From Vermamoeba vermiformis (Eukaryota), in contig JBEWZL010000302.1 of the NCBI GenBank assembly GCA_045837725.1, positions 496,001-523,904 of the forward strand: 27,904 nucleotides of DNA. The letters run 5' to 3'. Positions 2,587 to 27,904 of the stretch are shown here, one piece after another; position 1 is the stretch's first letter, and each line of letters opens with the position of its first letter. Under the pieces are notes generated by a model, which searched no databases, had not been told where the DNA came from, and was given only the letters and a program-made list of their open reading frames with translations. The translations under genes were made by a program, and so were the position numbers.

Positions 2587-3332
2587 TCTGTCAGGCCACT
2601 GCTAACCTCACTTTCTGTTGATAAATTATGTCAATAGGTATACGAATTAAATTTAACTTGATGTAAAAATAATTAGCTTTAGGGAGAAGGTTTGAGCTAA
2701 CTAACTCCAAATCCATTTCGCACAAAATATAAAATTCAGTTTTGCAACGCGATAAATTGTAAACCTTCCTCTACTACTACAATTTTCAATAAACGCATTT
2801 TGTTATTAAGAGAATATAAAATAATCGAATAACATTTACCTATTGCCTCGGACTTGAGGTGTTGCACGGGAAGTTGTAGTAAAATCATGCGGGATACTTG
2901 GCAAAGCTCGAATTTGCTCACGAAATTCCAAACTGAATCAAGTTTACGCATGTCGTTCCGCACCAAGGTTTGGGTTGGATGTGGCGGTCTGGCCCGAACG
3001 TAGAAGCATCCATGTTGGCTCGTATAGAAGCGTAATAGGCCATAGATACATTGTGTTCGATGGTATTGCGACCTCGTTAATTCCTTTTGAAGCGATGTGA
3101 TTGACAAATATTTTCTAAACTCCGGAAAATTCGCTCAAATCTCCTAAATGCCCCGAACTCTTCCCGATGTGGCATTACCACGGTAAATCGTTATCACGTA
3201 TCTTATTGTTGCATTACATAAAGCGAACGTTTGTTAATTAATTTCAGTTTAATGTTACAATTTAGTTCGCATATTTACATGGCAGCTGTTATTTACATTC
3301 GTTATTTCGAGGCCCGTGTTAAACAAAAAGCG

Positions 3333-7143: not shown

Positions 7144-7164
7144 ATGTACGTATCTTTGTCGATT

Positions 7165-10100: not shown

Positions 10101-11930
10101 TGGAAGATGTAAACAGTCTGGTTAGCCCATGGCTTGCCTACGAAGAGTTAGTTTGTGTTAGTTTAATCGTGGAGGACTTACCAGCTTGGTACGCGTGGAA
10201 AGATAACTGAGTTGTCTCATGGTGGTCGAGATAGATGTCCACTTGGTCGCCGTTGAACGTGACAGGCTCTTCGGTCAGAAGCGTGACTGTCTTGCCGGCC
10301 TTGTCCTTGGCCAAAGCCACAAATGTGCCCTCGCGCACCTGTTGGACGGTTGCTTTGCCTCGGAATGGAATCTCAACGATTCCATTGCGAGCGTTGTAAT
10401 ATTCGGTACTGTAAGGGATGTCTCCGATGAAGATTTGTTTGTTGTCTTTTGTGTTAAGGTACAGCTTGAACTCGCCGAAGTTGAACTTGGGACCCAGAGT
10501 CGGGACTAAGCTTGCGTCGAGGTTCTCGTATTTGCTAGCGACAGCCCAGTACTTGCTGTCGTCACGATTGGCGAATGGAACAGTGGCCAGCATGTCCATA
10601 GTAAGGATTTGCCTGAAGCGAATGTTAGAACTGATTTACGTTCAATCAGTAAGACATACGTCTTCTCGTCGACTTTAATCCACGAGGGAGAAAGATGTTG
10701 AGGCTGCTTGTCAGTACCAGCGCCAGGAATGGGATCCTTGTAAGTCAGCAAGCGACCTGAATTTCGAGTTAGGTCGATTTTGCAAGTGTTCTCGTCTCAA
10801 TCAGCAGTACCTGCAGGAACGCCCATGGGCTCATATACAGGCGCGTCAGGCACATCGCGATAGTTCCAAAGTTCGATCGTTCCATAGACGCTGCCATAGG
10901 CAGGAGTAGGAGGACGATCCAAGTTCTTAAGAGTCAACCAAATAGTCGGGTGGATGGTGTTGAATAACATGTAGCGAACGGAAATACCATCAGCGCGACC
11001 TTTGTCAAGAGCCTCTTTCATTGCTTTGAGCACCGGCGATGATTTGACAGCATCGTGATCAAGAGCCAGTTTTTCTTTTCGGATCACGAACTTGAACGAA
11101 CCAGAACAGCCTAAGTATGGTTAGATGCGTTTCAAAATGCTTTAAAGTACCTTCATTCTGCGGAACAAATGGAGTAGCCGGATAATTGACGGTTGAAATT
11201 TGATTGAAATTGAATATTCTGTTGTGCGAGATGGAAGGATCTGATCCTACAAGAACAGGGACTTGACCTAAACAGTGTAAGCAGCGATGTAAAACTTAGG
11301 TTTGAATCTTACCCGATGAACCTCCCAGGCGTAATTCTCCGCTGAAGATCTGTGATGTGTAAATTCCAGACATATCCAGATCAACCATTTTGGGCTTGGT
11401 GCGATTTCCATGCAGGAGGTGACCGAGCAACTCCACGGACATGCCAACCATTTTAGAATCATGCGCGACATTGCCGTCAATCTCAACTAAAAATTGCAAC
11501 GGTTAAGGATCTTGATATCTTATACTTAAAATTAAACTATATAACATAATTTATTTGAGTAAACGCGGGCAACAAACGCGAACTGAACTTTTAGAGACTT
11601 AAACGGTTTGAAGCAAATCCGGATTAACGGATCGTCCGACCAGAAACTAGCCTTACCTGACGTTACTTTAGTATCTTCCCACCAAAAGGAGTTCGATCCA
11701 TTAAGATTCCAATACCCAGCATTGCCAGGATTGTTAACGGAATCCGAGACCCACTTTTTGAACTCCTCATCCGTGTAGTTTGCTTGCAATGAACCGTCGG
11801 GATTCTTAATATACAATGCAAGGGTGCCAACGTCAATATTCTGACCGTGGTCATTATTGGAGGTTGGCACATCTGCGACGTATTTTCCTTTAAAATGAAT
11901 TCGCGGATTCGTCCAGCAATTCGAGGCCAT
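7165..11930 (-). CDS. vioB: VioB-like protein (iminophenyl-pyruvate dimer synthase / RebD-StaD family) with C-terminal ferritin-like domain; multi-exon
   Basis: Collinear matches to VioB as remembered: PRIHFKG..ADVPTSNND (VioB PRIHFRG..VNAPTANRD), TLGPKFNFG (DLGAKLPLG), NGIVEIP (HGIVDLP), VRVLPND (LRVLPDD), VLRYYYLLYPTM (VMAYYELVYPFM), FMPVTREMS (YMPSTRELS), LMLQYLFGAWS (VMLQYLYAAYS), QEMLH (EEMIH), EQGEGG, SHF. ATG at 11930, stop at 7165-7167, canonical introns. Confidence 0.88.
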
Positions 11931-12107
11931 TGTCGACAGTATTGTATAACACAATAAAATAATATCAATTGTGTTAACGTGTTTCTGAACACGCCGTTGA
12001 CAAACAAACGTGAGATATTTTTGTCTTCAAAGTTTTCCCGCTTCAAAAAAACGGTAATATTTTGTTACTGCCCTACAAACGTAACACCATAATACAAGTT
12101 ATTATAC

Positions 12108-14210
12108 ATGTATCTCAAGCTAACAGCCGTATTTGTGACGGTCGCTCTGCTCGTTTTCAGCGCTTTCGCTGACGACGACGCTGCTAGAACCCAGAAAACC
12201 TTGGATAGTAAGCTTGTTTTTACAACCACATTACTCAGATTTTAGTTACTAACTTTCCGTTTAATTTCAGATTTTTTCAAGGCCACCGAAACTTTAAACT
12301 GTGATCTGTGGGTCGACCAATTTGCCGACGATTACGTTATTCAGGATCCTGCTGATAGCCCGCCATTCAGTGGTACCAAGGCTCAATTGATGGAGAGTTG
12401 CTTGGAAGGAAATCCTAAGACTTTTGCTTGGATGAACGTTACCACTCAATACTTTATTACCGGCCTTTCTGCCTCTGCTCGCTGGAACGTGGCCGGAAAG
12501 AGCAAGGACGGCTGCCCCTTGACTTTCGGTAATATTTACCGCTCTTCACCAATGCCGTTAAATAAGTGCAATACTTAAATTTTTCTGAATAGGCGGAGTT
12601 GATTCATTCGTATTAAACAAGGCCGGAAAGATTAAGCAGCTTACTGGTTATTGGGATCCTTCTCAGATGCAAACTCAGCTTCTGTAAGTCAGCATCTGGA
12701 TTTTTGCCGTTTATGGAAAATTTTTATTTTGTTAACAAATTTATGTAGGTGCTCTAACCACACCAAGAAATTGTATGCCCGTACGATGGAGGTTTACTCG
12801 TACATCCATCAATTGGATGCCGATAAATGGGCCGCTCAATTTGTTCCCGATGCAGTTATGAGCTGCCCTATGTCCGCTCCCGCATATCATGGCCGCGAAG
12901 CTATCAGGTAATTACTTTATATAATGTAAATTTAACTTTAAGTCTGAAATCGCGTCAATCACCGGTAATCAGGTAAATATCTCGGTTATTTTTAACCTAT
13001 TCCAAATTTAGAGCTTACGCACAAACCGCTTTCTCGAACTACGATTACTACGATTACGTCATTACTAAGGACTTCGTTGTTGACGGTCAATCTGTTGTTT
13101 TCTGGCGTGTTGGTATGCCACCCGCAAACACTTTGAATTTCTTGCTGAACTTTTTCAATAGCTTCTGCCTCTTACCTTGGTTGCCGCATCAAGCTTTTGG
13201 CCTACAACACTATTATATACGACGAAGATCTTCAAATTACTGAGTGGCGCGATTACTTCGACGTAACCGAAGAGATCTCTCAGATGGTGAATTGCGAGAA
13301 TGGAACTAACCGCCCCGTTGCTCCTGTTTGGCCCAGCACTTTCGAGTCTGATTTCACTGGTAAGTCATGACGCTATTGTACTATCAACGACTAACAGCGA
13401 TTAGTTGAATTGGACATGTGGCCTGGCTTCGTTTCCAAGGGTCACTTGTGGTACGACTGGACCACTCGCTCGCAACGTGCCGACTACATCGGTAAGTCTT
13501 TTCAACCTGCTATATGCTCTTGCTAATCGAGGTAGACTGGTGCTTGCCTCTCACCGATCAATTGCCTCCCTTCATGAACTACACTTGCACGTACATCATG
13601 CGCGATCACACCACTTACTACATTGACAAGATCAACCCCGCCAAGCCCACTTGCTGCGTCTTTGATAACAGTACGTGTTTACATTCAATTTTTAGTGTTC
13701 CTGTGCTAATTTTCGTTGCTTTTAGACCTCCCTCCTCCAGTTCCTGACTTCGCATCCGGCATGACTTACAACGGCACAACTACCGTCGATGGCCAATTGG
13801 TCTCTTCTTGGTACTTGTTGGGCCCCTTCCCCTACGGTCCTTTCTATTACTGGGCCTCGGTGCAAAACAACTTACCCGTCAAGTTCAAGGGTCCCACTAC
13901 TCTCAACCAAACCACGCTCTCCTACAAGACTGTCAACATTCACCCCATTCCTACCGAAGCTTTTGCAGTCCCCGCTGATTGCACCAAGATTTGCGAGGTT
14001 CCCAACGACACTCCTGTAGACGGTTCCAAGCCTGCTCGAGTTCACCACCGCATGCACCACAACCACGTGCCTCATGCCTCGACCACGTCTCACAAGTCTT
14101 CTGGCAGTTCGGAAACCACAGTTGACGATCATGTGCACGACAATGTGAATCCTCATGACTATGCTAACGCTGCCCCTCAGCAATACTACACTGCCCACCA
14201 CGATGAATAG
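12108..14210 (+). CDS. Secreted protein: two SnoaL/NTF2-like domains + LolA-fold (ependymin-related/VioE-like) domain + His-rich tail
   Basis: Signal peptide MYLKLTAVFVTVALLVFSAFA. SnoaL repeats WVDQFADDYVIQDP...GKIKQLTGYWD and WAAQFVPDAVMSCP..YHGREAIR...ITEWRDYFD. From ~13313 PVWPSTFESDF..GHLWYDWTTRSQRADY..CC..PPVPDF..TYNGTTTVDG..LPVKF..FAVPADC. Tail contains HHRMHHNH. Confidence 0.8.
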
Positions 14211-14418
14211 ATCTTGTAGGCGGAAAGTACCGCGATAGTTAAATAATTCGTTATTTAGCTGTTTGTCAATTCTTGCCCGAAAGACTACGTTATAATGGCA
14301 TTGGTTAAAGTTTTAAATCAAACATCCAAATCTCCGCTTTTGCTAATTTTGGCAATCACGTGCGACCTAACACTAATTTTAGAGTTTTGGCAAACGATTT
14401 ACTTTTGAAAATCGCGAC

Positions 14419-17400
14419 ATGACGGCAACCACAAAGCCCATTGATTTGGACGAGCTCTTCCCAAAATACCTTGGGAGCCGCCAAGAAAAAGCTCGATTGG
14501 CCCTTTTGGGTCAGCCTGGCTTGATCTTCAAAAGTTACGACATGACCGGAAGCTACAAATATTTAAATATCAAGACCAAAAGAATGCTATCCGTCGAGAA
14601 CCGAGGTTTATTGAAGATCCATAAACTTTCGTATCCGTGGATCGTAACAATTCACCAGAAAGATAAGACAAATGACGAGATACAATTACACAATGTGGAA
14701 ACGGAGCAGACGAAGCGAGCAAGTTTAACACTTGGAGAAGGCGAGACGTGCAGCGTGCTTCTTTGTAACAGTTCTGGCATCCTTATCGTTACCGATAAAC
14801 AATTTTATTTTATCAATTATGCCACATTCGGCGAAGACAAACCTCGCACGATTGCTTTATCGAGCACAAAATTGCTTGAGAGGGCATCCAACCAATTTTC
14901 CGCTATCGAAGACAACAAAGCACTCATCGCAAACGGATGGCAGTTTCAACTTTGGGACATCGAGACAGGCAAATGCCTGAATACGGCAAATTTAGAGCGC
15001 GAAGAAGACCCAATGCCGTTCCAAATTCTCAGTCTGCGAGATGGGGTGGTGATCGGAAGCACTCTCAAAAAGCTTTACATGTGGACTGATTCAGGTAAAA
15101 TATCAAAAATTAATTAATTTAGGAATTTATTACACGTATTGGTTGACATTTTAGACGTCAATTTTTAAATTGAAATCAGTATTGAAAAAATCATCATTAA
15201 TTTTAATTTAAATTTTAACTTGCAGGCGTAAACTCAATCCAAATCCGCGATCCATGCTCTTGCTTCATTATAGATGATGGAAAATTATTCGTCGCAAGTA
15301 TTACCGGGCAGATCTCGGTTTACGAATTTCCAAAACCCGCCCTGGTGCGTGAGTTGAATGTTGGTGCTGCAGCTGGGATGAATTTTCTCGAGCAAATGCA
15401 AAGTAGCAGAATCAATGACTTGATTTACTTCGATGAAGTCCTATTTGCCATAACAGAAAACGGTATGACGGATGAGATCGCGAATTAGTTCCGAGTCTCA
15501 CACTTTTGCTCTCAGGCGACCTACAAGCGTGGAACACTACACAAGAAAACAGTACTGCTCCATTGAAGACGCAAACTTTGAAGGGAAAAGCGAAGAGAAT
15601 GATCAAACTCGACGGCAAGATCTATATTCTCGTCGTCCGCAAAGGCAAGCACGAAGAGCTGGTTCTCTACAATCCCCACGTCAAGAGATTGCTCGCCGCC
15701 AATGCAGTGTCCGCGAGCGCGAGCACGCCTTCTGTTGCTGCCGGTGAAGTGCGCAAGGACGGTTACTTGATGGTCAAGGCATACGACTCAAAGAAGGGCA
15801 AGCGACGATACGTGCAGCTCCGCGACAACATTTTGTACGAGTACTCATCGCCTAGCGTACGTAATTCTTTAGCACGATTGTATTATGCTAATCCTGAGGA
15901 CAGGACATCGCGCCACTTGGCACCTACGTGATGAGCCCTACTGCGAGCATTGAGGTCAGCGCCTCTAAAAAATCGAAACAAGGCTACGTCAGACTCCACT
16001 TGAACGACAAACAGTTCATTACTCTCAGCACTGATAACGCCGTCGAGGAAGACGAATGGTACAAGGCTCTGAATGCTTCCATCAAGGACTTGAAGTTCTC
16101 TTCGTTCGCGTACTCCGTGCCATTCACGAGCATTCAACTCGTGAAGGACGAGCGCGGTAATGTGATCAAGTTAGGCAAAGGAGCGGAGTCTTTAGTAGTG
16201 CGAGGTATGTTGATCACTATTTTTCGAAGCAAATCTAATGGTCTTCAAGCTTTGTTGAACGGTCGTGATGTTGCCGTGAAGCTTTTCAACCAGAACACTC
16301 CGTCAAAGATCTTCAAGAACGAAATCGAAATATTAAGGTACGTGCGGAGTACTTAGTGCAACTCAAGCTAACGGTATTTAGCGCGCTAAGACACCCGTGC
16401 ATTATGGAGCTTGTTGGTGCTTGCGTCAAGCAGCCCAACTTAGCACTCGTTCAGCCCTTGATGCTCCGAGGTTCATTGTATGACGCCCTTCACGGAGCCA
16501 AGAAGCTTGATCCCACGAAGTACACGTGGAAGTTGTACTTGAAGATTGCAAATGACATTGCTTCAGGTAAGTCAAATGCCTCTCTTTGGCGTTTATTCAA
16601 TAAACTAACGCGTCGTTGCAGCAATGAACTACCTGCACAACTTCACGTTGAACAACGTCAAACAGCCGATCATCCATCGTGATTTGAAACCTTCCAATTT
16701 GCTGGTCAACTCTTTGGATGCAGACAGCAATGCCGTGACAGTTAAATTGACCGATTTTGGTATCAGTGCTATTGATGCCAAGACTGAGACCAGCTCGAGC
16801 GGCACAACTGCGTACATGGCACCTGAAGTTCAAGAGCGTGGTGAGAGCGTGACCAAGTCCGATGTGTACAGCTTTGGCATTGTTTTATGGGAGATGCTCA
16901 CGCAAGCGGTGCCCCCTACTGTCAAGCGAGTCGCGTACGTATTGTGATTGCTGCTGAAGTGATCATACTAACCACAGTGACAGTAACGAGCACGCAAGGA
17001 GTATCGCCCCGAATTCATTCCCCGAGTATGCGCCTGCGGAATTAGTTTCGCTCATTCGAGGTACCAAACAACACAATGTGTTTAAGGCCGCTAACAGCTA
17101 TTTTAGAATGCACGTCCGTGTCACCGAACATGAGACCTACTTTCGAGGGTGTCATTGAACGTCTTATGGATTGCACTGTGGCAATGATTTCCAGCAACAG
17201 AATCAACGAGCCAGTGACCTCGCCAGCCACCGCCAATCAAAGTGCTACCAGCGGTTTGGTCATTCCCAACAAGCTCTACGGTCGCGAGCCTGAAATCAAG
17301 TCCGTATTGAAGGCATTCGATCGCTTCAAGAACGGAGCCAAGGAAATTCTGTTTATTAAGGGCTATGCTGGCATTGGCAAGTCCTCCTTCATTGAGAAGA

Positions 17401-20400
17401 TGAGTCAGTACGCTTCGACCCGTGGGTACGTCTGCAATGGTAAATGGACTCAACAACAGCGCCGCATCCCATACTTTGCCATCACTCAGGCATTGAGTGG
17501 CCTACTGAGATCAAAAGCGAAGACTTGGACTGACGAGGAGAAGCTCAATTGGAAGAACAAGTTCTTATACGTTTTTGAGGAAACATCTCGCCGCGTTCTT
17601 TTCGAGTTGGTCCCTGAAGCAAGGAAGATCGTGCACACTGCTGCGGAGACTACCGATTCTTTGGATGAAAGCGGCAGCGGCCCTGATATGGCCAATATCA
17701 GCAAGGACAAGTTCAACTACACCTTGGTTACGTTCTTCAAGATGCTCGCTACCAGTGAACATCCTCTGATCATTGCTTTGGACGACTTGCAATGGGCCGA
17801 TAGCGCAAGCTTTGATTTGATTACTGCTTTGTTCACCGATCCTTCGCTCAAGTACTTGCTGCTTGTTGGCACATACCGTGATAATGAAATTTCATCGAAG
17901 CATGGTCTGTTGGTAAGTGTAGAAGTTGCTTCTTGATCCACTGATCTAACTTTTCGTGCAGAATGCTCTTCAAGACATTAACGCAGCGCACATTACTTCA
18001 GTTGTCGAGGTTCGATTGCCACAGTTACAAAGCGATAGCGTGTTCAGAATGTTGTGCGATACCTTTAATGTCAAGTCTACTGACAAGAGTGAGCGTGGCG
18101 AGTTGACGGAGTTGGCAAGCATTGTCACCACTAAGACATTCGGCAATCCATTCTTCATTCATCAGTTCTTGCAAAGTTTGTTCTTAGATAAGCTCGTCAA
18201 TATCGACGCTCAACACCGTTGGTCTTGGAACTTGAAAGAAATCAAGGCATCAAAGGCCACCGACAACGTGTCCAGTATTGTTACGAAGAACATCAATGGC
18301 TTGTCTAAGAAGGCCATTCAATTACTCCGTCTCGCCAGCCACCTGACTTCCACATTCACGAGCAAAGTCCTTGCTGTGCTTAGCGTAGTTCAGCCAGAAA
18401 GCAAGTCTGTCTCGAAGCCATCGAGTGACGAGGTCAAGACTGTTGAAGAAGTATTGTCGGAGGCCGTGCAAAAGGGCTTGCTGTTCCTGAAGTCCAAGCA
18501 CACGTACAAGTTCGAGCACGACGAGATTCAACAAGTTCTGTATGGAATGATCGACAAGAACGAAAAGCAATCCACGCACTACGCTATTGGTCGCGCCTTC
18601 AACAAGATCATTCACTCAAGCAGTTTGGCCAAGAGCTTCCCTACGATCAGCTTGTTTGAAACCGTGCATCAACTTAATGCCGGAGCAGAGTTGATCAAAG
18701 ACCAATCCGAGTTCATTCAGCTCGCGCAACTCAACTTGGAGGCAGCAAAGATTGCCATTCACAAGATGATCGCGTTCGAGTCCGCCTACGGATTCTTGCA
18801 AGCTGCTATGAAGTATTTGGACCTGGAAAAAGGAAAGGGAACTAACGAGAAGGTTCACTGGAATCTCAACTACGAACTCTGCTTCTCAATCTATTTCGAG
18901 CTCCTCCACTGCGAGATTAATCAAGGTTTATTGAACGATGCTGAAGCTACCATCGAGTACTTATTCCAGAAGGTCGACAACAAGAACAAATTGCAAAAGG
19001 CTCGCTTGTACGAGATGAAGGTGCACTTGCAAGAGTCCAAATACCAACCCTTGGAAGCGTGTCAAACTGCGCTGGACTGCCTTAACTACTTGGGCATCTT
19101 ACCGGAGAAGACAATCGTCTTCGCGCTGCTTCAAAATCCCGCGCCTGTGTTCGCACTTGCCCAACAGGTCGATGCCTCCAAGATATCTCAAGCTGAGTTG
19201 CGTGCACGCGCTGCGAGATCGTTCGTTCAGCAAGTCACTCCCGAAGTCGATTTGGCCAACAGAGTTCTGCTCACCGCAATGATTTCAGGTAATTACTCGA
19301 ATGTCCGTAAATAACAGTACTAACAGAGTGTTGAATAGCGATTCTGAGTGGTATCGTCCCCGTGTCCAGTTTGTTCTCCCTATTATGGATGAAACTGATG
19401 CTCGAGAATCCCGGCTTAAAGGTGTCGCCTTATGCTCTCTTCGTCTACTCTTCGTATTGCATCAACTTCCGTGGCGATATGAACACGGCCGTTGATCTTA
19501 CACGCTTGGCATACAACCTCCTTCAAGACAGCAACGACCCTCATCGCGCCATTGCTTTGCTCAACACGGCCACGTACTTGGGTTTCAGAATGTTCCCGTA
19601 CAAGGACGTGCTCGTTAGCATGAACAAGGTCTACGAAATGGCCACTGAAGACGGTGCATTTGCCAGCGTTGGTTACGCGTGCATTCACGAGGTGTACATC
19701 ATGGTGATGGGCGGTGAGAATGTCTCACAAGCTATCGTCAAAGCCGAGAAATGGAAGGTCCTTATGCTTGCCAAGAGAAACTTCTTCATTGTGTTTGGTA
19801 TCAACATCTCATTGGCTATCTTGAAGCTATTGCGCGGCGACACGCTACACAACGATACTCTTACCTTCGAGGGTTTCAGTCAAGAGGAAACTGAAAGGGG
19901 TTTGACCCACATGCCTCCAGTTGCAGTGTTCACGTATTTAGTGTACAAGATGTTTGCCAAGGTAAGCGCAATTGTAGTGTCGATCAACAGCCCAACTAAC
20001 GAGCGAACCTAGTGTCTATTCAATCGCTGGGAAGAGGCCTATGAAATCCAGAAGCGCATTATCGCGGAGTGCGAGAACCCCATTAAGGGTTTCTTGTTTT
20101 ACGCGTTCTGGCTGTTCTTGGCTGCCCTAGTACCGCTCAAGCTGTACAAGAAGAATGTAACTTCAAAGACCAAGCGTCACGAGTACAGCGCGTTGTTTGA
20201 TGACTACATGAAGGTAGCTGCATAATGACAGTCTTATATACCTCGGTACTAATTAAATACGGTTATTAGCGCTTGAAGGAGTACGAGATGGGCGGTCAAA
20301 ATATTCAACACTGGCTGGACTTGTTGCACGCTGAAGAGCTTGCAAATTCGTTCTATCGACACCGCAAGCGAGTGTCCGTGCCATCGTCGACTAGCTTGAC

Positions 20401-21645
20401 GAGCAGTTCATCTAGCGCTGGTTCTCCTCTCCCTACAAACTCCTCGCCTAGTCTCACCCGAAAGGATGCCAAGACCAATCTTCAAGAAAAGAGCGAAAAG
20501 TCACACTTGAAGTATCTAGAGGCCACGCACTACTATAACAAGAGCAAAGAGCATGCCATCAAAGTTGGCAGCTTGGTATTTGCTGGATGGGCCGCGGAGT
20601 TCTGTGCTGACTTCTGCACCGACTTGGGCTGGGAAAGCATGACACGTGTTTATGCTTACGACGCGTTCAAACTCTACGAAGAGGCTTCTGCATCAAGCAA
20701 AGTTGAACACATCAAGAGCAATTACGACGATGTCCTTGCCGAGTTCACGAAAATCATTGGCACAACAGAGTCGAGCAGTGCTGTCGATGAAAGTTCTGTC
20801 AACCCTCATAGCATTCTACTCCTCAAGCAGTTTGGTCGTAACTTAATGTCACAAGTCAGAAATGAGACTAAAAACCCTAGCCTTCGTGATGCTATCGATG
20901 TGTACTCCGATTACATCACGAACATGGATCTTGCCTCGCTGACGACAGACTCAAGCGAGTTAAGTTCAGCAAGCAGCACGATCTCAACCAGCTTGGAGAC
21001 GTCGCGAAGCACGGTAAGTTGCAACCACGAATAATTAAGTGCATTCGTTTTACTGACAAGTCTCTTAGGAAATTCAAGTTGAAAAAGAGCTCGCAAGCAC
21101 GCTGAACATGGTCAAACTAATTCAGCAGGTGTCAAATCCTGATGTCGATATTACACACTCGCTCAGCTTATTGATCCCCAACAACATTTGTCTCCCGTTG
21201 CTCTTGACGCCTGCTAATTTCAAAGAAATCATTACGATTTACACGGTCGCTTTCATAGTGAACTTCGGTCAGCATCCCAAGTATCACCTGGCTTTATTCT
21301 TGTACGTACTATCAGCTTTAATTGTTAACTCTGGCTAATTAATTACTTTCAGAGAGCCTAGTGCTGAACTGCGAATAGTGTTCCAGCTAACGGACTTTAT
21401 CCCGAAAGAAACATCTGTGCCTCTCCAGGGCGAGACTGCCGATGTGCCTGTTGGAGTTAAAAACTCATTACGACCAAGTAAGTTGCTTGCTTTGTTATTG
21501 TTTGAACAAAAACTAATGCCACTTTACAGTTGAGCAATTGTTGGATAGTGTTCAAGCAGAGTTCAGCTATTGTCGTGTGGTTAGAGATCAATACATTCAG
21601 CATGTGCTCAAGATGACTTGTGCTTTCCATGCTTCAGACAAATAA
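14419..21645 (+). CDS. Large multidomain protein: WD40-like beta-propeller, PH, TKL protein kinase, STAND/AAA_16 NTPase, TPR-like helical region
   Basis: LWDIETGKCL-type repeats. PH: KDGYL..KRRY..EWYKAL (~15750-16090). Kinase motifs GKGAES, VAVK, HRDLKPSN, DFG, APE, SDVYSFG (~16160-17170). LYGREPE, Walker A GYAGIGKS, Walker B LDDLQWAD, GNPFF, FEHDEIQ. The exons checked join in frame through GT-AG introns to TAA at 21643-21645. Confidence 0.88.
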
Positions 21646-21983
21646 GACATTGCTTTGTAATAAATTATTTTTCATTGAATTGAGCCTATTAAAACACTCA
21701 AACAGTACACAATTTTCTTTTGAATGAGGTGGCTTCTCTTATCCCATTCAAAGGTCTGGGCTGTAAATCATCCCTAAGCCTTTATTTGATTTAGTAGTCT
21801 GTAATTAACAACTGACCAAAAGTTCATGTCAGACAATCAAGAACAAAACAAGCTGCCATGTAAAGAAAAACTGAATGAAGCCTTTCAGCCAAATGAACAT
21901 CTCAATTATCCAATTGACACACTGAAGGACTCTTGCTTGGGACCCAACTTTTTCCTGTGGGAACAGGTAATCTTCATGCAGTC

Positions 21984-22417
21984 TCAATCTGGATGCCTTT
22001 GATTTGATAGTCTATGGTTGGGGATGCAAAATGCAGTGGCAATTTTTTTTGGTGATGGATACCATGGAAAACAAAATGGCAACCATTTTGCCACCTGTTC
22101 ACTGTGGTAAACATGTACTTCAAGTGTTCTTAATTGATGCAGAACTTGATGGCACCAATTGATGTGCCAGGCTAGATGACATTCTTGCCGCTCTTGTCCT
22201 TGTCCCAAGGTGAAGGCATGTTGAGCATGAACATTACCAGCTGATGCAAGTGCACCTGGTACATCATTTTGCTGTGCTGATTGGTAATTGAAATGCTGGG
22301 CAAAAAGTTCAGCATAGGAATGATGCAGCCAGAGTCCAACAGGACTGTGTGGTCTGACAGGCTGTGGTAAAGTTTGCCTTGGAAAAAAACTTGGTCAGGT
22401 GTGTGGGATTTTGTCAA
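21984..22417 (-). pseudogene. Decayed His-Me finger (His-Cys box homing endonuclease-like) gene fragment
   Basis: Minus-strand reading VHLHQLV...KFCIN*EHL...VNRWQNGC with in-frame stops resembles the CxNPxHL...N..RNxC motif of zf-His_Me_endon proteins. It lies in a CpG-depleted tract. Confidence 0.45.
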
Positions 22418-23113
22418 ACCTTGCCAAGTTGTATGTGGGTATTGTATGGAATAAAAATAAAAAACTTAAGTAGGGAAGAAAAACGTTTTTTTCTATGGTG
22501 CCTCCTTCACCAAAGCTTGTAGTTAGCTCCACTCTCCTCCAACCTTTTTGCAAGCCTTATTCACTCAAGGAAGAACATGCTGCAATGTTTGGGGCAAACA
22601 TTAACTTTACTTATTTTAATTTCCTTCATGTTAGGTTGTTTTTACTTAATATAGGTTAATAACTGTTTATTATAGGTACATCAGTTTGACCTAATTTACT
22701 TGTGTGGTCTGTGCAAATAGAACTTGGGGTATCAAATCCTTCTTCATGCTTTTGACTCTGAGCTGGAGATTTGTGGTGAAGGACACTGCATCCAGTCTAA
22801 AGAACACCTGAGTGTGTATGCAAGATGTCTTACCTAGAGATCCAGAGTTGGATTGTTTCTCAGGGATAGGAGACTTCAGGAACTCATGGTCACTAGAAGA
22901 CAGTGGAAGATCCATCTGAGATGCGCCCAAGAAAGTGGTTGGCCTAGTCAGGATAAGGTACTTACATATCAGGATGAATGTCTTCTAGCTTCCTGATGAA
23001 TATTAAAAATTTAGTAAGCCAAGATCCACTCAAGATCGAGTACTGAAAAAAAGACAATTTGCTAAAAATAAACTGAGAGGAGGAAATATCGATTTCTAGT
23101 GCTTAATATACAT

Positions 23114-23141
23114 CAGTCGCGGCCAAAAGTATCGCCCCGTC
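23114..23141 (+). mobile_element. Possible left terminal inverted repeat of a Tc1/mariner-type element
   Basis: CAGTCGCGGCCAAAAGTAT resembles Tc1-like termini (CAGT..GGCCAAAA) and marks an abrupt return of CpG. It is not directly preceded by TA and no partner TIR was seen in the window. Confidence 0.35.
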
Positions 23142-23265
23142 ACTTGACTAGGGCCATTTCCGGTAGGAGAAAGTTTGCATGGCCAAAACGGGCGTTTATT
23201 ATCAGCATATGCTTATTATTTAGCATATGCTAAAATGTATCGAAAACATATGATGAACTAGATAT

Positions 23266-24132
23266 GGCAAGATCCATGAGTCTCAGCTCACATGGAATGG
23301 CCAAATATACATCAACCTGTGATAAATTGGACAAATGCAACGCAAAAAAAGTGGATGCAGTTAAAAAACTGCAAAATGGAGAGCAAAAATAAACAGCAAA
23401 AAAAATTCCTTGGAAGTGACCTGAGTTAATTATTCAAACTTTGTGTGGTCTTGCACACCGATTTTTCCAGCATCCAACAGCAACATCCTAAACAAATGCG
23501 GCCAAATCATAATGTATCTGGAGGGCAAGTACCAAAAAACTAGCAAAATTGTTGCTTTAACATAACAAATACTGAGCACCAACAAGAACAAAACACCTCA
23601 GAAAAATAAAAAAGTTACATATGCAACAGTGGGGTTTGAACCTGCGCCCTAGGGCTTCTGAGGGGCAAGCAAAAACGTGTGGCGCGTTTTTACTCCTTGA
23701 CAAACAATTTCTGAAGAAATTTTTACAAAATTGCACCTGTTTTGCAGTATTTTGTCAGTTCTTTGAGCTTCTGGAGTAAAAACGCGCCACGCGTTTTTGC
23801 TAGTGGTGATAACTTCCTCAGAAAGGCAACAATTATCCATTAATTTGTTGCCTTGCTGAGGCCCCAAAATGCTTATCCATACCCTCCATTGTGTTGGCAT
23901 TGCTGAAACATGATGTCTGGTTGGTGAAAAATCCTGACCTCAGGTGAGGAAGATTGAGTTATTCTGTCTGTCTGAGACTCCCAAGTCCTCAGACTACAGG
24001 TGAAAAAATTGCAATTTTATGCTGTTTAAAAATTCCATTCCCATTTATTTTTAGAGAAGTTTTGCTGTTTAGATACAAAAATAAATGGGATGAAAAAAGA
24101 CCCCAGTTGAGCTGAGACTCGTGGATCTTGCC
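23266..24132. mobile_element. Non-autonomous TIR element (MITE), 867 bp
   Basis: 25-bp TIRs GGCAAGATCCA(T/C)GAGTCTCAGCTCA at 23266-23290 and 24108-24132 (one mismatch), flanked by ATAT on both sides. No credible ORF inside. Confidence 0.85.
23668..23801. repeat. 29-bp inverted repeat with 76-bp spacer inside the MITE
   Basis: AGCAAAAACGTGTGGCGCGTTTTTACTCC (23668-23696) and GGAGTAAAAACGCGCCACGCGTTTTTGCT (23773-23801), one mismatch. Confidence 0.9.
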
Positions 24133-24189
24133 ATATGTAAAATAGCATATGAACCAGAGCATATGCAATTTATTAATTAAAAAACAATT

Positions 24190-24634
24190 TTACTTTTTCT
24201 TCTTTTGCTGCAGGAGTGCCAGTTGTTGCTTCAATTTGCGCTCCTTCTCATTGTCAGAGTCATTTTCAGAGATTGATGACTCTGGATCAGCTGTAAGGGT
24301 AGGAGGAGGGAGGAGAATGTAAAGACTGAACAGACATTAGAATGCAAGATCTGTTTAAGTTTGAAACTTACGTCTTTGTATCCTGGCGACTCAAATGTAC
24401 TAAACCAAGTTGATCTAGCTTGAGAAGTTGCATTTTAACATGATCCTTGTGTAGCCCTAGAATTCGAGAATTAGATACATATGATTAAATACATATGATT
24501 AAATACATATGCATTTTACCAGTATCGTTGGTAACTGTTGTGCATTATATAGGATTTAGGGCTGGGGGTGTGGTTGCGGGCGTAGAAGGCCCGTAAATCG
24601 TGCTGGGTTACGCCCCGGAAAAAACCGGCAAAAT
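24190..24634 (-). pseudogene. Small spliced gene, winged-helix-like segment plus acidic/basic tail; apparent frameshift, 5' end unresolved
   Basis: Introns 24519-24457 and 24371-24326 (GT-AG with CTAAT) give TVTNDTGLHKDHVKMQLLKLDQLGLVHLSRQDTKTLYILL...ENDSDNEKERKLKQQLALLQQKKKK*. The upstream part of exon 24634-24520 is open only in another frame. Confidence 0.5.
24472..24511. repeat. Short tandem repeat (ATACATATGATTAA, ~2.7 copies) in an intron; CATATG motifs also cluster at 23205-23252 and 24146-24165
   Basis: Direct reading of the sequence. Confidence 0.8.
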
Positions 24635-24699
24635 CTGGCACGAATTGGAAAGAATTAGAACATAAACGCATTATTTTATTTAATGCTAGGCATGAACAG

Positions 24700-27600
24700 A
24701 GAGCCCAAACAATGGGCTTTAAGGTGATATTTGTTATTTGAGATAGCGCGGCGAGGTAAGTCTGAAATCGGAATTATTCCGGCGGGGATCAGAACGCCCC
24801 GGATCAAAAAGTTTTTTAATACGCGTTTATTTTGGTTAATTTTGATTAAAAATGATAGTTATTGGCAACTACTAACGCGTAGTATTGCCAGAAAAAATTA
24901 GAAAAATCGCGACGGTGAAATAACGTCGCGTAGATCTGAACACTCAAAACGGTCAGATCTGAAGAAATTGATAGTAAATATGGCGTTAATAATACGTAAG
25001 TATCACCATAAAATCATTATTTTATTTTTTATCGCGGTTCTGATTCGGATTCCGATTTCGCATCGGATTCAAAACCGCGAGATCAGCGAAATTCTCGCAA
25101 ATAAATGCATTAAATAATGTTAAAAGTATTGTTAATCACTTTTATTACAGTTTGGAGTCATTAACTTCGATCTGACAAGTCCGTTTCCGGATACGAACTT
25201 GTCACTAAAAATAGTGCAACGAGAGATCGACCACAAGGGTCGAATTATTGATTGTTTATTGCCGATTAACAGCAGGCAGTCACGCGCCGCGGCACCAGAG
25301 CCGTTCAGCGCGAGTTATTTTCGATGTTACAGTGATGCGATTTTGGATTTACAATACTTCGATCACAACGGTCGAATTATTGTATTAATTAGATATATTA
25401 GTGACAATAAACACGCGCACAACGATATTCAGCGTCGTTGCAGCGCGGCTTTCAACTCAGCAATTTCTCGCGCCTAAATCTCGGTGCAGCGACCGAGATC
25501 TTAAAAGGTAATAATTATCCTATCATCCTTCCACCATTTATAATACATAGAAATCGTTAATTCAATTATTGATTTTTCAAATTAAAAATTAAAGATCCGG
25601 ATTAGAGCTTAGTGCTCGAATTTTTATTAAAATAGTATGTAATTATATGTAACGCATTGCTCTAATATTAATTTTTTATTACAAGATTGATTACAAAAAC
25701 ACGAGCGCGATCGAAAGTTTTCTTGACTTTCGTACCGCGAGATCCCGACCACCAATGGTCGTTTCAGTGTATACTGGTACTTTTCGTTCGTGTCCCGCTG
25801 CGGGGGCGATCACTACTGCTCGCCGACGGGGTCGGTAACTAGATGGCGAGTTCGAATCTGCCCAGGCCCTGGAAATAATTCAGTAAGTATTTAAATATAT
25901 TCAATAGCGATGAAATAATCGTACCAATGCGTCGATTATTAATTTAAAAATCAAGATAATTTTTTTAAAATTAGTGAAATCGGATCGAGCTTCGTGCTCG
26001 TGCAAAATTTAAATAATTGTTTTTTTTATTACTAATACTACATACTAATGCCTATTTAATAGGTTATTTGAGCGTCAATACGAAGACGCTTGTTCTAGAT
26101 CGAGCGCGAGGTAGATCGCTCGATCCCCGTCACTTTATCAAGCGTAAGTAGCTTAAATATATTGCCTTAATAGTGGTTAACATCCTAACGCTGCTTGTTT
26201 AGGCGTCAAAAGTTAACAAGAACGGATCTCGAACGTGATCTTCTCGCGTTATCAGATCCGTTACATCACCCATAATAGCCCGGTAAGTGCGTCTACAGTT
26301 AGATATTGTTTAATACTAACCCGTTATATTACTAGAAATAACGAAGACGACTACGGAGAAAAAATTTAGTGATCGAGATCCAACGCGTCTCGATCTTTCA
26401 AAATTTATATGGAGAGCATCGATTGCTCTAACGGTAAGCAGTACTCCTTATATATTAACATTTAAACTCATTGATACTAATTTTACGCGTAGGAGATGAC
26501 ACGGAGCTCCTTGCCCAGAGATCGGGTTGCGACATCCCGCTCTTTCAAAAGTTAGTGACGCGCATCGATCGCGTCGAAAGTAAGTAAAATTGATTTATAA
26601 TAATTAATCATTGTTATTTAATATACTAACGTTTTAATCTGTAGATTTGATCGCGGCACTGATTACACCAAGTAGGCCGGGTCGTAAAACTGTTAGAGCG
26701 CATTTATTGCGCAAAAGGTAAGACCAACGCAATTTATATGATAGGTGCGTTGTACTGATTAATTTTTTTAATAGAATGAGTGGCTTTACGGACTTAACGG
26801 ATCTGCGATCTGTTCACTACGTGCCGTAATTTTTCATCAATAGTAACGCTATTTAGAACGGTAAGTAACCAGATTAATAGTATATGGCTCTTAATAACGC
26901 GTTATTTTAGCAGATCCTATCAAAACCCTTTCATGGCGAGACTGTACGCGGATCCGAAAAAATTGAATGGCCTTATTCAAAGGCTACTTAAGGTAAGTAA
27001 AGATCGTTTAACATAACCCTTAATATCGTATTTATCGCTAATTGTAATTACAGAGCTTCGTTGATGCGATCACGGATCTCTCATCAGATCTGACCCGCGA
27101 AGAAAAGTCAGTCGTTCGCTAACAATCTCAGAGGTAAGTTAATATTATTATTTTATATTCTAAATACTAACACGTTATATTATTAAAATAGGTGAATGGT
27201 TAATTTAAAAGAACAGACGCGGATCGAGCAGTAACATCCAGATCCGTTAAACTGTACATAGCGCGTATCGATCGCGCTAAGAGTAAGCGTACCGTAATAT
27301 ATATTTATATTACATTATATTTATTAATTGTTTTTAGTTGAAAGAGAGTTTTTACGGCAAATCGGATCCGCGATCTGTTACAACTTTGCGCCGTCGTTGA
27401 AGTCAAAGACTACGCCAAACAACAAGGTAAGTTATCAAAATCAATAGTATACGGTAAACATTATTGACTTGTGTTATTAGAATTACTCAAAATACGTTTG
27501 TTATTGCTCGGAACCGGATCGAAGAGAGCACATCTCGATCCGTAAAAATTTTAAGTAATCGCATTGATCGCGCCAAAGGTAATTATATCTTAATGAATTT

Positions 27601-27904
27601 TAATTTTACAATATTCTAATTGATAATTATACTCAGAATGAGAGCGTGTACGGACTTGACGGATCGTGTTGCACTGGTCACGTCGCTAAATTTCTAGCAC
27701 TGTTACACAAGAGTAAGTTGTTAGCAAGCAATGTTTAATTAAGTATAGTGGAGCTAACATTTGATTATGTAGAACGCGAACGAGTTTAGTTGCCGGCGGA
27801 TTCGGTCATTAAAAATGCACGATCTCAGCAAAACGAACACAACTGAAAGGTAAGTTTGAAATTTGTTATTTATTGATAGGTTTTTATACTAAGCTTTGAT
27901 TAAG
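24700..27904 (+). ncRNA. Putative multi-exon spliced long non-coding RNA with repeated hairpin exons; continues past the window end, start approximate
   Basis: 17 donor sites (mostly GTAAG) at 24756, 24996, 25508, 25883, 26144, 26283, 26434, 26580, 26718, 26861, 26993, 27134, 27283, 27427, 27579, 27713 and 27850. Each is followed by an AT-rich intron, usually with a CTAAY/CTGAY-type branch, and an AG acceptor. Exons 26203-26282 and 27192-27282 have stops in all three frames. Confidence 0.7.

What the first reader, a model, noticed from the sequence alone, without database searches (positions are those of the whole stretch)
26063..27849. Exons fall into two repeat classes with covarying stems
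Seen: class A exons end in a hairpin just before the donor with a similar loop but different stems: AGAGC-ATCGATT-GCTCT (26413-26429), GACGCG-CATCGAT-CGCGTC (26557-26575), GCGCA-TTTAT-TGCGC (26698-26712), TAGCGCG-TATCGAT-CGCGCTA (27259-27279). An upstream GATC-closed stem with variable interior is common (GATCGAGA..TCTCGATC, CGGATCGA..TCGATCCG, AACGGATCT..AGATCCGTT). Class B exons (26775, 27338, 27637) share TACGG..CGGATC and each follows a class A exon. Inference: duplication of exon-intron units with compensatory change, i.e. selected structure; variable interiors could be specificity elements.
Basis: partly seen in the sequence, partly recalled or inferred. Interest (0 to 1): 0.78.

Follow-up and report, generated by a model that had tools for sequence, protein, structure and literature searches.

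The report
Spliced non-coding array of hairpin exons
A stretch of a freshwater eukaryote's genome carries at least 13 short hairpin-rich exons split by textbook mini-introns with no protein reading frame, most likely a spliced non-coding RNA from a many-copy family whose function is still unknown.

Summary
26063-27849 (+) is 13 units of mean 142 nt: an exon of 73-98 nt (GC 0.45) and an intron of 50-65 nt (GC 0.25). All 13 donors read GTAAG/GTAAT and all 13 acceptors YAG. No reading frame survives splicing.

The quoted hairpins sit at the stated coordinates. Perfect stems of 6 bp or more number 9, against 3.3 in shuffles (1 of 500). Mean folding z is only about -1.0; 4 of 13 exons fold no better than shuffles.

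Class A (E3, E4, E5, E9, E11) and class B (E6, E10, E12) are real. Covariation in class A exceeds the controls but rests on five sequences. The pre-donor hairpin is largely one conserved near-palindrome in two registers.

New points:
- The gene starts near 24.7 kb, with larger, more strongly structured exons.
- Its 5' blocks occur in tens of diverged copies in the source organism.
- Relatives in water metagenomes keep the donors.
- Rfam, C/D-box, Pfam and protein searches found nothing real.

Best reading (0.42): a spliced non-coding RNA of tandem two-hairpin modules acting as a multivalent binding platform. No RNA data exist. Rivals: repeat DNA with dyad symmetry, decayed coding repeats, small-RNA precursor.

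The parts
24883..24995 (+). upstream exon Ea: a CGCG-type hairpin directly followed by a GATC-type hairpin
   Evidence: Flanked by ..ACTAACGCGTAG| and |GTAAGT. Folding z is -3.6 and -3.8.
25180..25507 (+). upstream exon Eb: two to three hairpin modules without introns between them, including the 97-nt three-hairpin block 25224-25320
   Evidence: z -4.9 for the whole exon and -4.0 for the block. Summed depth is about 9300 against about 200 for identical contigs. Other copies are tandem, with spacers of 15-36 nt.
25686..25882 (+). upstream exon E0, the most copied block of the family
   Evidence: Summed depth is about 14000 at 25754-25867, with up to 25 variant contigs. z -1.45. No Rfam match.
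26063..26143 (+). exon E1: two hairpins (26071-26090 and 26098-26125), variable tail
   Evidence: Paralogues keep GTAAGT after a different 19-nt tail (loose ends at 26124).
26203..26282 (+). exon E2: one long bipartite hairpin, AACGGATCT..AGATCCGTT enclosing AACGTGA/TCGCGTT
   Evidence: z -3.4. At 26236, T is C in the other contigs, turning a U.G pair into C-G.
26336..26433 (+). exon E3, class A
26493..26579 (+). exon E4, class A; two double changes in hairpin 1 relative to the class consensus
26645..26717 (+). exon E5, class A (divergent hairpin 1, loop TTTAT in hairpin 2)
26775..26860 (+). exon E6, class B
   Evidence: (D12).
26911..26992 (+). exon E7, loosely A-like (start corrected by one base)
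   Evidence: The class A model R1 scores it only 7.6 bits, E 3.7.
27054..27133 (+). exon E8, loosely B-like (ACGGATCT..AGATCTG)
   Evidence: z about +0.5.
27192..27282 (+). exon E9, class A
27338..27426 (+). exon E10, class B (one base shorter between TACGG and CGGATC)
27481..27578 (+). exon E11, class A (hairpin 2 decayed to 3 bp)
27637..27712 (+). exon E12, class B (hairpin lengthened by an inserted GTG..CAC)
27773..27849 (+). exon E13, degenerate A-like; the array runs off the window
   Evidence: R1 scores it 10.9 bits, E 0.77. A donor lies at 27850.
26144..27772 (+). span holding the twelve short introns between E1 and E13 (50-65 nt, GC 0.25), each with GTAAG/GTAAT; a CTRAY-type branch motif is found in most (8 of 12 by pattern scan, the rest read by eye), followed by YAG
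   Evidence: Introns of the neighbouring coding genes are built the same way at 44-63 nt.
25883..26062 (+). long intron that contains an exon-like module (hairpin GAGC-TTCGT-GCTC plus an A/U run). Similar long introns lie at 25508-25685 and 24996-25179.

Best explanation
The locus is a gene on the + strand for a multiply spliced RNA that codes for no protein. It starts near 24.7 kb and runs off the window at 27.9 kb.

Its exons are diverged tandem copies of a module of about 70-90 nt:
- a hairpin whose stem base is (C)GGATC/GATCC(G);
- an A/U-rich linker (AAAA-YUKU);
- a GC-clamped hairpin that in class A carries the palindromic loop AUCGAU;
- a short A-rich tail.

In the 3' half of the gene one module equals one exon. 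In the 5' half several modules share an exon. Splicing would string the modules together into an RNA with 20 or more regularly spaced short hairpins.

My inference for the mechanism is a multivalent platform. It would bind many copies of a hairpin- or loop-specific RNA-binding protein, possibly helped by loop-loop pairing.

The gene belongs to a dispersed family with tens of copies in the same organism.

Shown here: splice-signal conservation, absence of a reading frame, hairpin and motif excess, some compensatory change, and copy number. Inferred only: that the locus is transcribed and spliced, and what the modules bind.
For: Splice signals:
- 13 of 13 units have consensus donors and acceptors. 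Eight of the 12 short introns also match a branch-point pattern, in the same style as introns of the neighbouring coding genes.
- Relatives keep GTAAGT although the adjoining exon tail differs (loose ends at 25913, 26124 and 26266).

No coding capacity:
- There are stops in all three frames of the spliced product. E2, E6, E8 and E9 have stops in every frame.
- Homologous class A exons differ in length by amounts that are not multiples of 3 (98, 87, 73, 91, 98 nt).
- Pfam found nothing for 10 of 10 exon translations. Two protein searches gave no true relative.

Structure:
- 9 hairpins against 3.3 expected (1 of 500).
- Upstream exons fold at z -3.8 and -4.9.
- The + strand folds better than the - strand (mean z -1.0 against -0.5).
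- In class A, 80% of cells pair and 7 pairs change on both sides, above the shuffled and slid controls.

Family variants fit the predicted pairs:
- 25254 G>A together with 25277 C>T (G-C to A-U; both are present in all 3 contigs of run X5).
- 25276 G>A (U.G to U-A).
- 25289 G>A (G.U to A-U).
- 26236 T>C (U.G to C-G).

Motifs and copy number:
- CGGATC is in 8 of 13 exons. GATC observed/expected is 5.6 in the exons.
- 422 contigs of run X1 match at 80% or better. Summed depth is 5000-14000 over the 5' blocks, against about 200 for identical contigs.
Against: - No RNA data exist. No listed run is on record as RNA, so transcription and splicing are inferred from sequence alone.
- Folding is unremarkable for 4 of 13 exons, and the mean z is only -1.0.
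- The covariation rests on 5 sequences and on a structure derived from them.
- The conserved motifs are themselves palindromes (GATC, CGCG, ATCGAT). Hairpin potential could therefore be a by-product of conserved DNA words, and the - strand also folds somewhat better than shuffles.
- Some family variants break predicted pairs. 25274 A>T does so, and 25254 G>A is seen in 10 X1 contigs against 3 for its partner change.
- A family of tens of copies is unusual for a long non-coding RNA and usual for mobile or satellite DNA.
- A local excess of synonymous-looking differences (E9 against E11: pS 0.71, pN 0.26 in one frame) hints at past coding.
Confidence: 0.42

Rival explanations
1. The locus is repeat DNA, a satellite-like or non-autonomous mobile family. 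On this view its function or spread depends on DNA-level dyad symmetries (GATC, CGCG and ATCGAT palindromes, inverted repeats of 6-9 bp), for example as protein-binding or cruciform sites. The transcript and its introns would be secondary.
For: - The 5' blocks have tens of copies. Other copies of block 25224-25320 are tandem, with periods of about 112-133 nt.
- Self-complementary words are strongly over-represented on both strands: GATC observed/expected 3.8, CGCG 7.5 and CpG 1.9 in 24500-27904.
- The - strand of the exons also folds slightly better than shuffles (mean z -0.5; for E1 the - strand is the better one).
- The locus sits next to a CpG-poor transposon-like block and near the end of the window.
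Against: - Sixteen consecutive consensus introns on one strand are kept although the introns themselves have diverged beyond alignment. Neutral repeat DNA would lose them.
- Tandem Repeats Finder sees no array here. Units are only 38% identical by column, so there is no homogenisation as in satellites.
- No terminal repeats or transposase were found. The window ends inside the array, so this is weak.
- G.U pairs outnumber A/C mismatches 7 to 3 in the class A stems, which leans towards RNA on the + strand (counted and alignment A4).
Confidence: 0.22
2. The exons are decayed coding exons of a repeat-protein gene family. On this view the hairpins are incidental to CG-rich Arg/Ser/Ala/Asp codons, and this copy is a pseudogene.
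For: - In one frame the 3' halves of E3, E4, E9 and E11 are open and read alike (..SRSVKLYIARIDRAK against ..SRSVKILSNRIDRAK). E9-E11 gives pS 0.71 against pN 0.26, and E3-E9 gives 0.69 against 0.31.
- Three stops in the window are sense codons in other copies, at least in one frame: 26236 TGA/CGA, 25841 TAG/TTG, and TAA/CAA in a subfamily (one search read).
- The chain E0 frame 0, E1 frame 1, E2 frame 1 is phase-consistent, and 6 of 8 family differences are synonymous in it.
Against: - No frame runs through the spliced exons. The class A motif frame ends with one spare base, while the class B motif frame starts in phase 0.
- Length differences between homologous exons, and 3 of 6 tandem periods of the Eb block elsewhere (112, 122 and 131 among 112, 132, 122, 132, 120, 131), are not multiples of 3.
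- The 97-codon open frame of Eb contains no ATG.
- A second frame over the same hairpin gives equally synonymous-looking changes (R-A-S-I-A-L against R-A-S-I-A-S), so the signal is not frame-specific.
- Summed over the six class A pairs, pN/pS is 0.76 in the best frame and 0.77 in another.
- 9 of 13 exons have an open frame, against about 6 expected by my estimate, which is not significant.
- Pfam and two protein-database searches were empty.
Confidence: 0.12
3. The transcript is a precursor from which each module is cut out as a small RNA of 70-100 nt. The product would be snoRNA-like or Sm-class-like, as in polycistronic or mixed exon/intron snoRNA clusters.
For: - The module size fits.
- Elsewhere the modules lie head to tail with spacers of 15-36 nt, and the 97-nt block ends in a T run.
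- About half of the linkers contain an AAUUUUU-like run between two hairpins.
- Exon-encoded snoRNAs exist in fungal clusters (PMC2780460, passages read). RNase III hairpins can release exonic snoRNAs (PMC12508059, abstract read).
Against: - No box C/D candidate exists in 24500-27904: 0 candidates with a C box at 1 mismatch or fewer, a D box and a 4-bp terminal stem.
- By eye, no hairpin-hinge-hairpin-ACA layout is present (exon ends).
- Rfam is empty at the gathering threshold and at E up to 10, including on single exon pairs.
- No hairpins form across exon junctions (mean gain -2.47 against -2.83 kcal/mol for non-adjacent controls).
- Splicing joins exons rather than releasing them.
Confidence: 0.1

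Closest known systems
Firre long non-coding RNA with its exonic repeating RNA domain (RRD); PMC4820808, abstract and passages read
   Same: A repeated RNA domain sits in separate exons of one non-coding gene: 7 of 13 human and 11 of 23 mouse exons, per the paper. There the repeat acts as a multi-copy protein-binding and localisation signal.
   Different: The Firre repeats are local to one locus, whereas these blocks have tens of copies genome-wide. RRD is 156 nt by my recollection and is not built of two short hairpins. Introns here are 50-65 nt. There is no sequence relation. Function is untested here.
Xist A-repeat and NORAD repeat units (recalled, no paper read here)
   Same: These are tandem GC-rich short hairpins separated by U/A-rich linkers. 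They serve as multivalent protein platforms within a long non-coding RNA.
   Different: Those repeats lie inside one exon, are single-locus and are found in mammals. The comparison comes from memory and was not tested.
Non-coding snoRNA host genes and mixed exon/intron snoRNA clusters of fungi (PMC2780460, passages; PMC12508059, abstract)
   Same: They are many-exon non-coding Pol II genes with short open frames only. One structured small RNA per repeating gene unit occurs, and an exon-encoded small RNA is documented.
   Different: In those genes the functional RNAs usually lie in the introns. Here the introns are minimal and unconserved, and the exons carry the structure. No C/D or H/ACA features are present, and there are no junction hairpins.
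Introner elements, i.e. transposon-born introns (recalled)
   Same: They involve many similar-sized short introns in aquatic eukaryotes and multi-copy sequence associated with splice sites.
   Different: The introns here are not similar to each other. It is the exons that are repeated.
Palindromic kissing-loop hairpins such as the oskar mRNA dimerisation loop (PMC11567897 and PMC7357161, search listing and start of abstracts only)
   Same: E3, E4 and E9 carry a 6-nt self-complementary sequence (AUCGAU) in a 7-nt loop on a GC stem.
   Different: Only 3 of 13 exons have the perfect palindrome. No evidence of RNA-RNA pairing exists here.

Membership tests
Box C/D snoRNA (exon-encoded cluster) | C box RUGAUGA near the 5' end, D box CUGA near the 3' end, short terminal stem | tested here: not met
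   A scan of 24500-27904 (+ strand) gave 0 candidates with a C box at 1 mismatch or fewer, a D box 45-130 nt downstream and a stem of at least 4 bp. No Rfam snoRNA reached threshold. The DdR5 match at 18.3 bits against a gathering score of 70 is chance.
Box H/ACA snoRNA | Hairpin - ANANNA hinge - hairpin - ACA three nucleotides from the 3' end, with large internal pockets | tested here: not met
   Stems are 5-9 bp without pockets. None of the 13 exon ends has ACA at -3 (listing). Rfam found nothing.
Sm-class small RNA (snRNA, SL RNA or SmY-like) | Sm site (a purine-flanked U run) between two hairpins; known family model | tested here: inconclusive
   AAUUUUU-like runs lie between the two hairpins in about half of the modules (E3, E6, E7, E11, E12 and the modules in the long introns). 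The others have AAACUGU-type linkers. No Rfam match.
Protein-coding repeat gene | One reading frame continuous across spliced exons, with a start codon | tested here: not met
   All three frames of the spliced product have many stops. Motif frames are out of phase between class A and class B exons. There is no ATG in the 97-codon frame of Eb.
Protein-coding repeat gene | Relatives among known or predicted proteins | tested here: not met
   Pfam matched 0 of 10 translations. The word-index search gave 0 hits. The exhaustive HMMER search gave one hit, P0122. It is a protein of at least 10 identical 100-residue repeats, which multiply a weak 31%-identity match.
Tandem satellite DNA | Head-to-tail copies similar enough to be detected as an array | tested here: not met
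   Tandem Repeats Finder at minimum score 30 reports no period near 142 in 26063-27849. Exon column identity is 38%.
Introner-type introns | Introns are copies of one element | tested here: not met
   The alignment of the 12 introns has 50% mean column identity in AT-rich sequence and no invariant column. Only introns 2 and 8 share a block (20 nt at 95%; 26 nt at 88%, D3).
Long non-coding RNA with exonic repeat domains (Firre-like) | Repeat domain confined to exons of a spliced non-coding gene | tested here: met
   Class A and class B motifs occur only in the predicted exons.
Long non-coding RNA with exonic repeat domains (Firre-like) | The transcript exists and is spliced as predicted | not testable with these tools
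   No listed run is on record as RNA.
Long non-coding RNA with exonic repeat domains (Firre-like) | Repeats local to the locus | tested here: not met
   The 5' blocks are present in tens of copies elsewhere in the source organism.

The most novel reading that the evidence does not exclude
A previously undescribed class of eukaryotic RNA gene: a dispersed family of multiply spliced RNAs in which every exon is a two-hairpin cassette. Each cassette has a conserved stem base (GGAUC/GAUCC), a conserved palindromic loop, and freely varying leaders, interiors and tails.

The concatenated cassettes would form either a programmable array, with the variable parts acting as specificity or guide segments, or a multivalent kissing-loop scaffold that seeds an RNA granule or a chromatin domain.

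The dense, regular consensus introns would themselves be functional, for example by loading splicing-dependent proteins at about 85-nt intervals or by marking the multi-copy transcript as 'self'.
Probability: 0.1. Interest if true: 0.85.

Novelty: new variant of a known kind. Interest (0 to 1): 0.55.

Why it matters
If the RNA is made and spliced as predicted, it would be an unusually clean natural example of a non-coding gene in which selection keeps splice sites and short hairpins while everything else drifts. It would also exist in tens of copies, which makes covariation tests and pull-downs feasible.

It would give a handle on two questions. One is what repeated structured exons do in non-coding RNAs outside animals. 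The other is why a non-coding transcript would keep an intron every 140 nt.

If it turns out instead to be repeat DNA or a dead gene family, it is a cautionary case. Palindromic words (GATC, CGCG, ATCGAT) can by themselves produce apparent 'covarying hairpins'.

Tried and rejected
- **Known RNA families.** Rfam at the gathering threshold on the whole window found nothing. At E up to 10, 24300-27904 gave one chance hit, 26336-26579 gave none and 27192-27578 gave two chance hits.
- **tRNA or tmRNA.** None found.
- **Own genome.** Not held.
- **Earlier notes of the scan.** Nothing on this genome or on similar sequence.
- **RNA evidence.** No RNA holder is listed among the 6 runs.
- **Relatives in public collections.**
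  - A 20-nt stretch of E1 gave 0 hits in metagenome contigs.
  - A 22-nt degenerate E0 motif gave 5 hits there. All are contigs with GC 0.67-0.72 and no further similarity, so they are chance matches.
  - The same motif gave 0 hits in viral contigs.
  - The only comparative data are therefore the tables, of which 589 differences and 79 indels were not shown.
- **Alternative genetic code.** The in-frame TGA that interrupts the HATPase_c match at 6295-6297 (+ strand) lies just before an intron-like 3' end. The in-frame TAA at 1705-1707 (- strand) lies between two kinase domain sets; I did not resolve it. I saw no need for another code.
- **5.8S rRNA.** From memory, the conserved exon words resemble the 5' part of 5.8S rRNA. 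Rfam's model gives no match even on 244-387-nt searches, so I dropped this lead.
- **Hairpins across exon-exon junctions**, as in the Pac1 case. No excess was found.
- **More class A members.** The covariance model of class A finds no further member in the window beyond its five training exons. The next best match is E13, at E 0.77.
- **Literature.** Searches for a described equivalent returned nothing relevant. Supplements were not consulted.
- **Organism.** The neighbouring gene's nearest Atlas clusters are eukaryotic, most often diatom. This is a lead only.
Full report
**What is in the sequence**

Positions 26063-27849 on the + strand hold 13 units. Each has an exon of 73-98 nt (mean 84.5, GC 0.452) followed by an intron of 50-65 nt (mean 57.4, GC 0.251).
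- The donors are GTAAGT (9), GTAAGC (2), GTAAGA (1) and GTAATT (1).
- The acceptors are TAG (11) and CAG (2).
- Donor-to-donor spacing is 142.2 +/- 6.5 nt.
- Eight of the 12 short introns match a strict pattern with a CTRAY-type branch motif 4-28 nt before the acceptor. By eye most of the others have one too.
- Introns of the neighbouring protein-coding genes have the same build at 44-63 nt, so these are ordinary spliceosomal introns of this organism.
- I corrected one boundary: E7 starts at 26911.

The window is eukaryotic. It carries bacterial-type hybrid histidine kinase genes interrupted by such introns. The nearest Atlas clusters of a neighbouring gene are eukaryotic, most often diatom. 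That is a lead only.

**The locus is larger than the finding**

The same style of gene structure starts upstream:
- a donor at 24756;
- exon 24883-24995;
- exon 25180-25507;
- exon 25686-25882;
- three long introns of 178-184 nt that each contain an exon-like hairpin plus an A/U run.

These upstream exons are more strongly structured than the 13 exons of the finding. Their z-scores are -3.8, -4.9 and -1.45 for the whole exons, and -4.0 for the 97-nt block 25224-25320. The array runs off the window at 27904.

**Not coding, as far as can be tested**

- The spliced exons have many stops in all frames, and four exons have stops in every frame.
- Homologous class A exons differ in length by non-multiples of three.
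- Ten exon translations gave no Pfam match.
- The 97-codon open frame of exon 25180-25507 has no ATG and no relative in the word-index search.
- The only hit in the exhaustive search, P0122, is spurious. It consists of at least ten identical 100-residue repeats that multiply a weak 31%-identity match.

I looked hard at a coding-like signal. In one frame the 3' halves of E3, E4, E9 and E11 are open and read alike. E9 against E11 gives pS 0.71 and pN 0.26. Three stops in the window are sense codons in other family copies in at least one frame.

Against this:
- The motif frames of class A and class B exons are out of phase.
- A second frame over the same hairpin looks equally 'synonymous'.
- Summed pN/pS is 0.76 and 0.77 in two different frames.
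- Tandem copies of the 97-nt block elsewhere have periods of 112, 132, 122, 132, 120 and 131 nt.

I keep decayed coding repeats as a rival at 0.12.

**Check of the observation**

- Perfect stems of at least 6 bp with loops of 3-16 nt number 9 in the 13 exons, against 3.32 +/- 1.62 in dinucleotide shuffles; 1 of 500 shuffles reached 9.
- Whole-exon folding energy is only modestly better than shuffles. Mean z is about -1.0. The best exons are E2 (-3.4), E9 (-2.3) and E1 (-2.1), while E4, E8, E10 and E13 are at about 0 or above.
- The - strand gives a mean of -0.5, and the short introns about 0.

Class A (E3, E4, E5, E9, E11) is a real repeat class. Mean column identity is 68% over about 70 nt, the tail forms a 5-copy 26-nt family (D1), and the covariance model scores its members at 60-75 bits, although it was trained on those same five exons.

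Class B (E6, E10, E12) is also real. TACGG-N5-6-CGGATC matches three times in the window, only in these exons, against 0.04 expected.

CGGATC occurs in 8 of 13 exons. Sixteen of its 22 occurrences in the window lie in 24800-27665. In the exons GATC is 5.6-fold and CpG 1.8-fold over expectation.

**Covariation**

I tested the class A alignment with hairpin 1 at columns 10-18/32-40 and hairpin 2 at columns 53-59/67-73.
- 80% of cells pair, against 71% after shuffling partners (4 of 500).
- Seven pairs change on both sides, against 4.0 expected (11 of 500).
- Slid registers pair at 31-44%.

E4 has two double changes in hairpin 1. E3 has one in hairpin 2 (C-G to A-U).

Against this, E9 has two one-sided mismatches, E11's hairpin 2 is reduced to 3 bp, and E5 is out of register in the alignment. 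The 'different stems, same loop' of the pre-donor hairpin is largely one conserved near-palindrome, GCGC-ATCGAT-(C)GCGC, read in two registers.

With five sequences and a structure derived from them, this is suggestive and not proof.

**Evidence from other copies**

One DNA run of the (coded) source organism holds 422 contigs that match 24500-27904 at 80% or better.
- Contigs identical to the window have depth of about 180-220.
- Summed depth is about 9300 at 25184-25297, 14000 at 25754-25867, 9000 at 25982-26095 and 5000 at 26210-26323.
- It is only about 450-1300 over 26666-27904.

The 5' blocks are therefore a family of tens of diverged copies. The distal exons have a few close copies only.

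Three water or aquifer metagenome runs hold relatives at roughly 85-100% identity. Where their sequence departs from the window it still shows GTAAGT at the corresponding place (loose ends at 25913, 26124 and 26266).

Several family differences fall on predicted pairs in a structure-preserving way:
- 25254 G>A with 25277 C>T (both present in all three contigs of one run);
- 25276 G>A;
- 25289 G>A;
- 26236 T>C.

One difference breaks a pair (25274 A>T), and the two partners of the double change are not equally frequent in the main run. Only the best-supported 40 of 629 differences were shown to me.

Searches of public metagenome and viral contigs gave no true relatives.

**What it is not**

- Not a known RNA family.
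- Not tRNA.
- Not box C/D: 0 candidates.
- Not H/ACA by layout.
- Not a detectable tandem satellite.
- Not introner-type introns.
- No hairpins form across exon junctions.

**Best explanation and rivals**

My best reading, at 0.42, is a multiply spliced non-coding RNA. It is built from diverged tandem two-hairpin modules: a GATC-based hairpin, an A/U-rich linker and a GC-clamped hairpin. It belongs to a dispersed multi-copy family and works as a multivalent platform for a hairpin-binding factor.

The nearest analogue in how it would work is the exonic repeating RNA domain of Firre (PMC4820808, abstract and passages read). It fails that analogue's 'local repeat' property.

Rivals:
- repeat DNA whose dyad symmetries matter at the DNA level (0.22);
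- decayed coding repeats (0.12);
- a precursor for small RNAs (0.10), by analogy with exon-encoded snoRNAs in fungal clusters (PMC2780460, passages; PMC12508059, abstract).

The remainder is left for something not considered. Transcription, splicing and function are all inferred; no RNA run was listed.

**Verdict**

The locus is odd and probably undescribed, but what it does is open. RNA-seq and a full assembly of the source organism would settle most of it.

Noticed in passing
window 21660-24500: This block has CpG observed/expected of 0.27, against 1.06 in 1-21000 and 1.88 in 24500-27904. It holds a 49-nt inverted repeat (23247-23295 / 24103-24151, 82% complementary, 807 nt apart) and a 29-nt near-perfect hairpin (23668-23696 / 23773-23801). 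It looks like a transposon or foldback insertion with a methylation-type CpG deficit.
   Followed up: partly
window 1-2601 (-), 5800-7143 (+), 14383-21650 (+): Several hybrid histidine kinase genes are present, with GAF, HisKA, HATPase_c, receiver, AAA_16 and kinase domains. Their best named relatives are bacterial (cyanobacteria, myxobacteria) at about 41-49% identity. Yet they carry spliceosomal introns of 44-63 nt, one of which splits the HATPase_c domain near 6297.
   Followed up: partly
window 25224-25320: This 97-nt block of three hairpins (z -4.0) ends in a T run. In other copies in the source organism it is repeated head to tail, with spacers of 15-36 nt that themselves contain GAATC..GGATTC hairpins. 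A second, partial copy lies at 25359-25466.
   Followed up: partly
window 25846-25864: The most copied exon contains GGCGAGTTCGAATCTGCCC. From memory this resembles a tRNA T-arm or a polymerase III B box. ARAGORN and Rfam find no tRNA.
   Followed up: partly
window 26312-26337 and 27163-27188: Introns 2 and 8 share a 26-nt stretch around the branch point at 88% identity (AATACTAAC.CGTTATATTA), although the introns are otherwise unalignable.
   Followed up: no
window 26336-27578, class A exons: The conserved words CTTTCAAAA, CGGATCTC and GCATCGAT recall, from memory, the 5' part of eukaryotic 5.8S rRNA. Rfam's models give no match even in very small search spaces, so this is probably coincidence.
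   Followed up: partly
protein P0122: The exhaustive protein search returned a 1289-residue protein made of identical 100-residue repeats, with E 3.9e-13. This is an example of a repeat protein inflating a weak 31%-identity match.
   Followed up: yes
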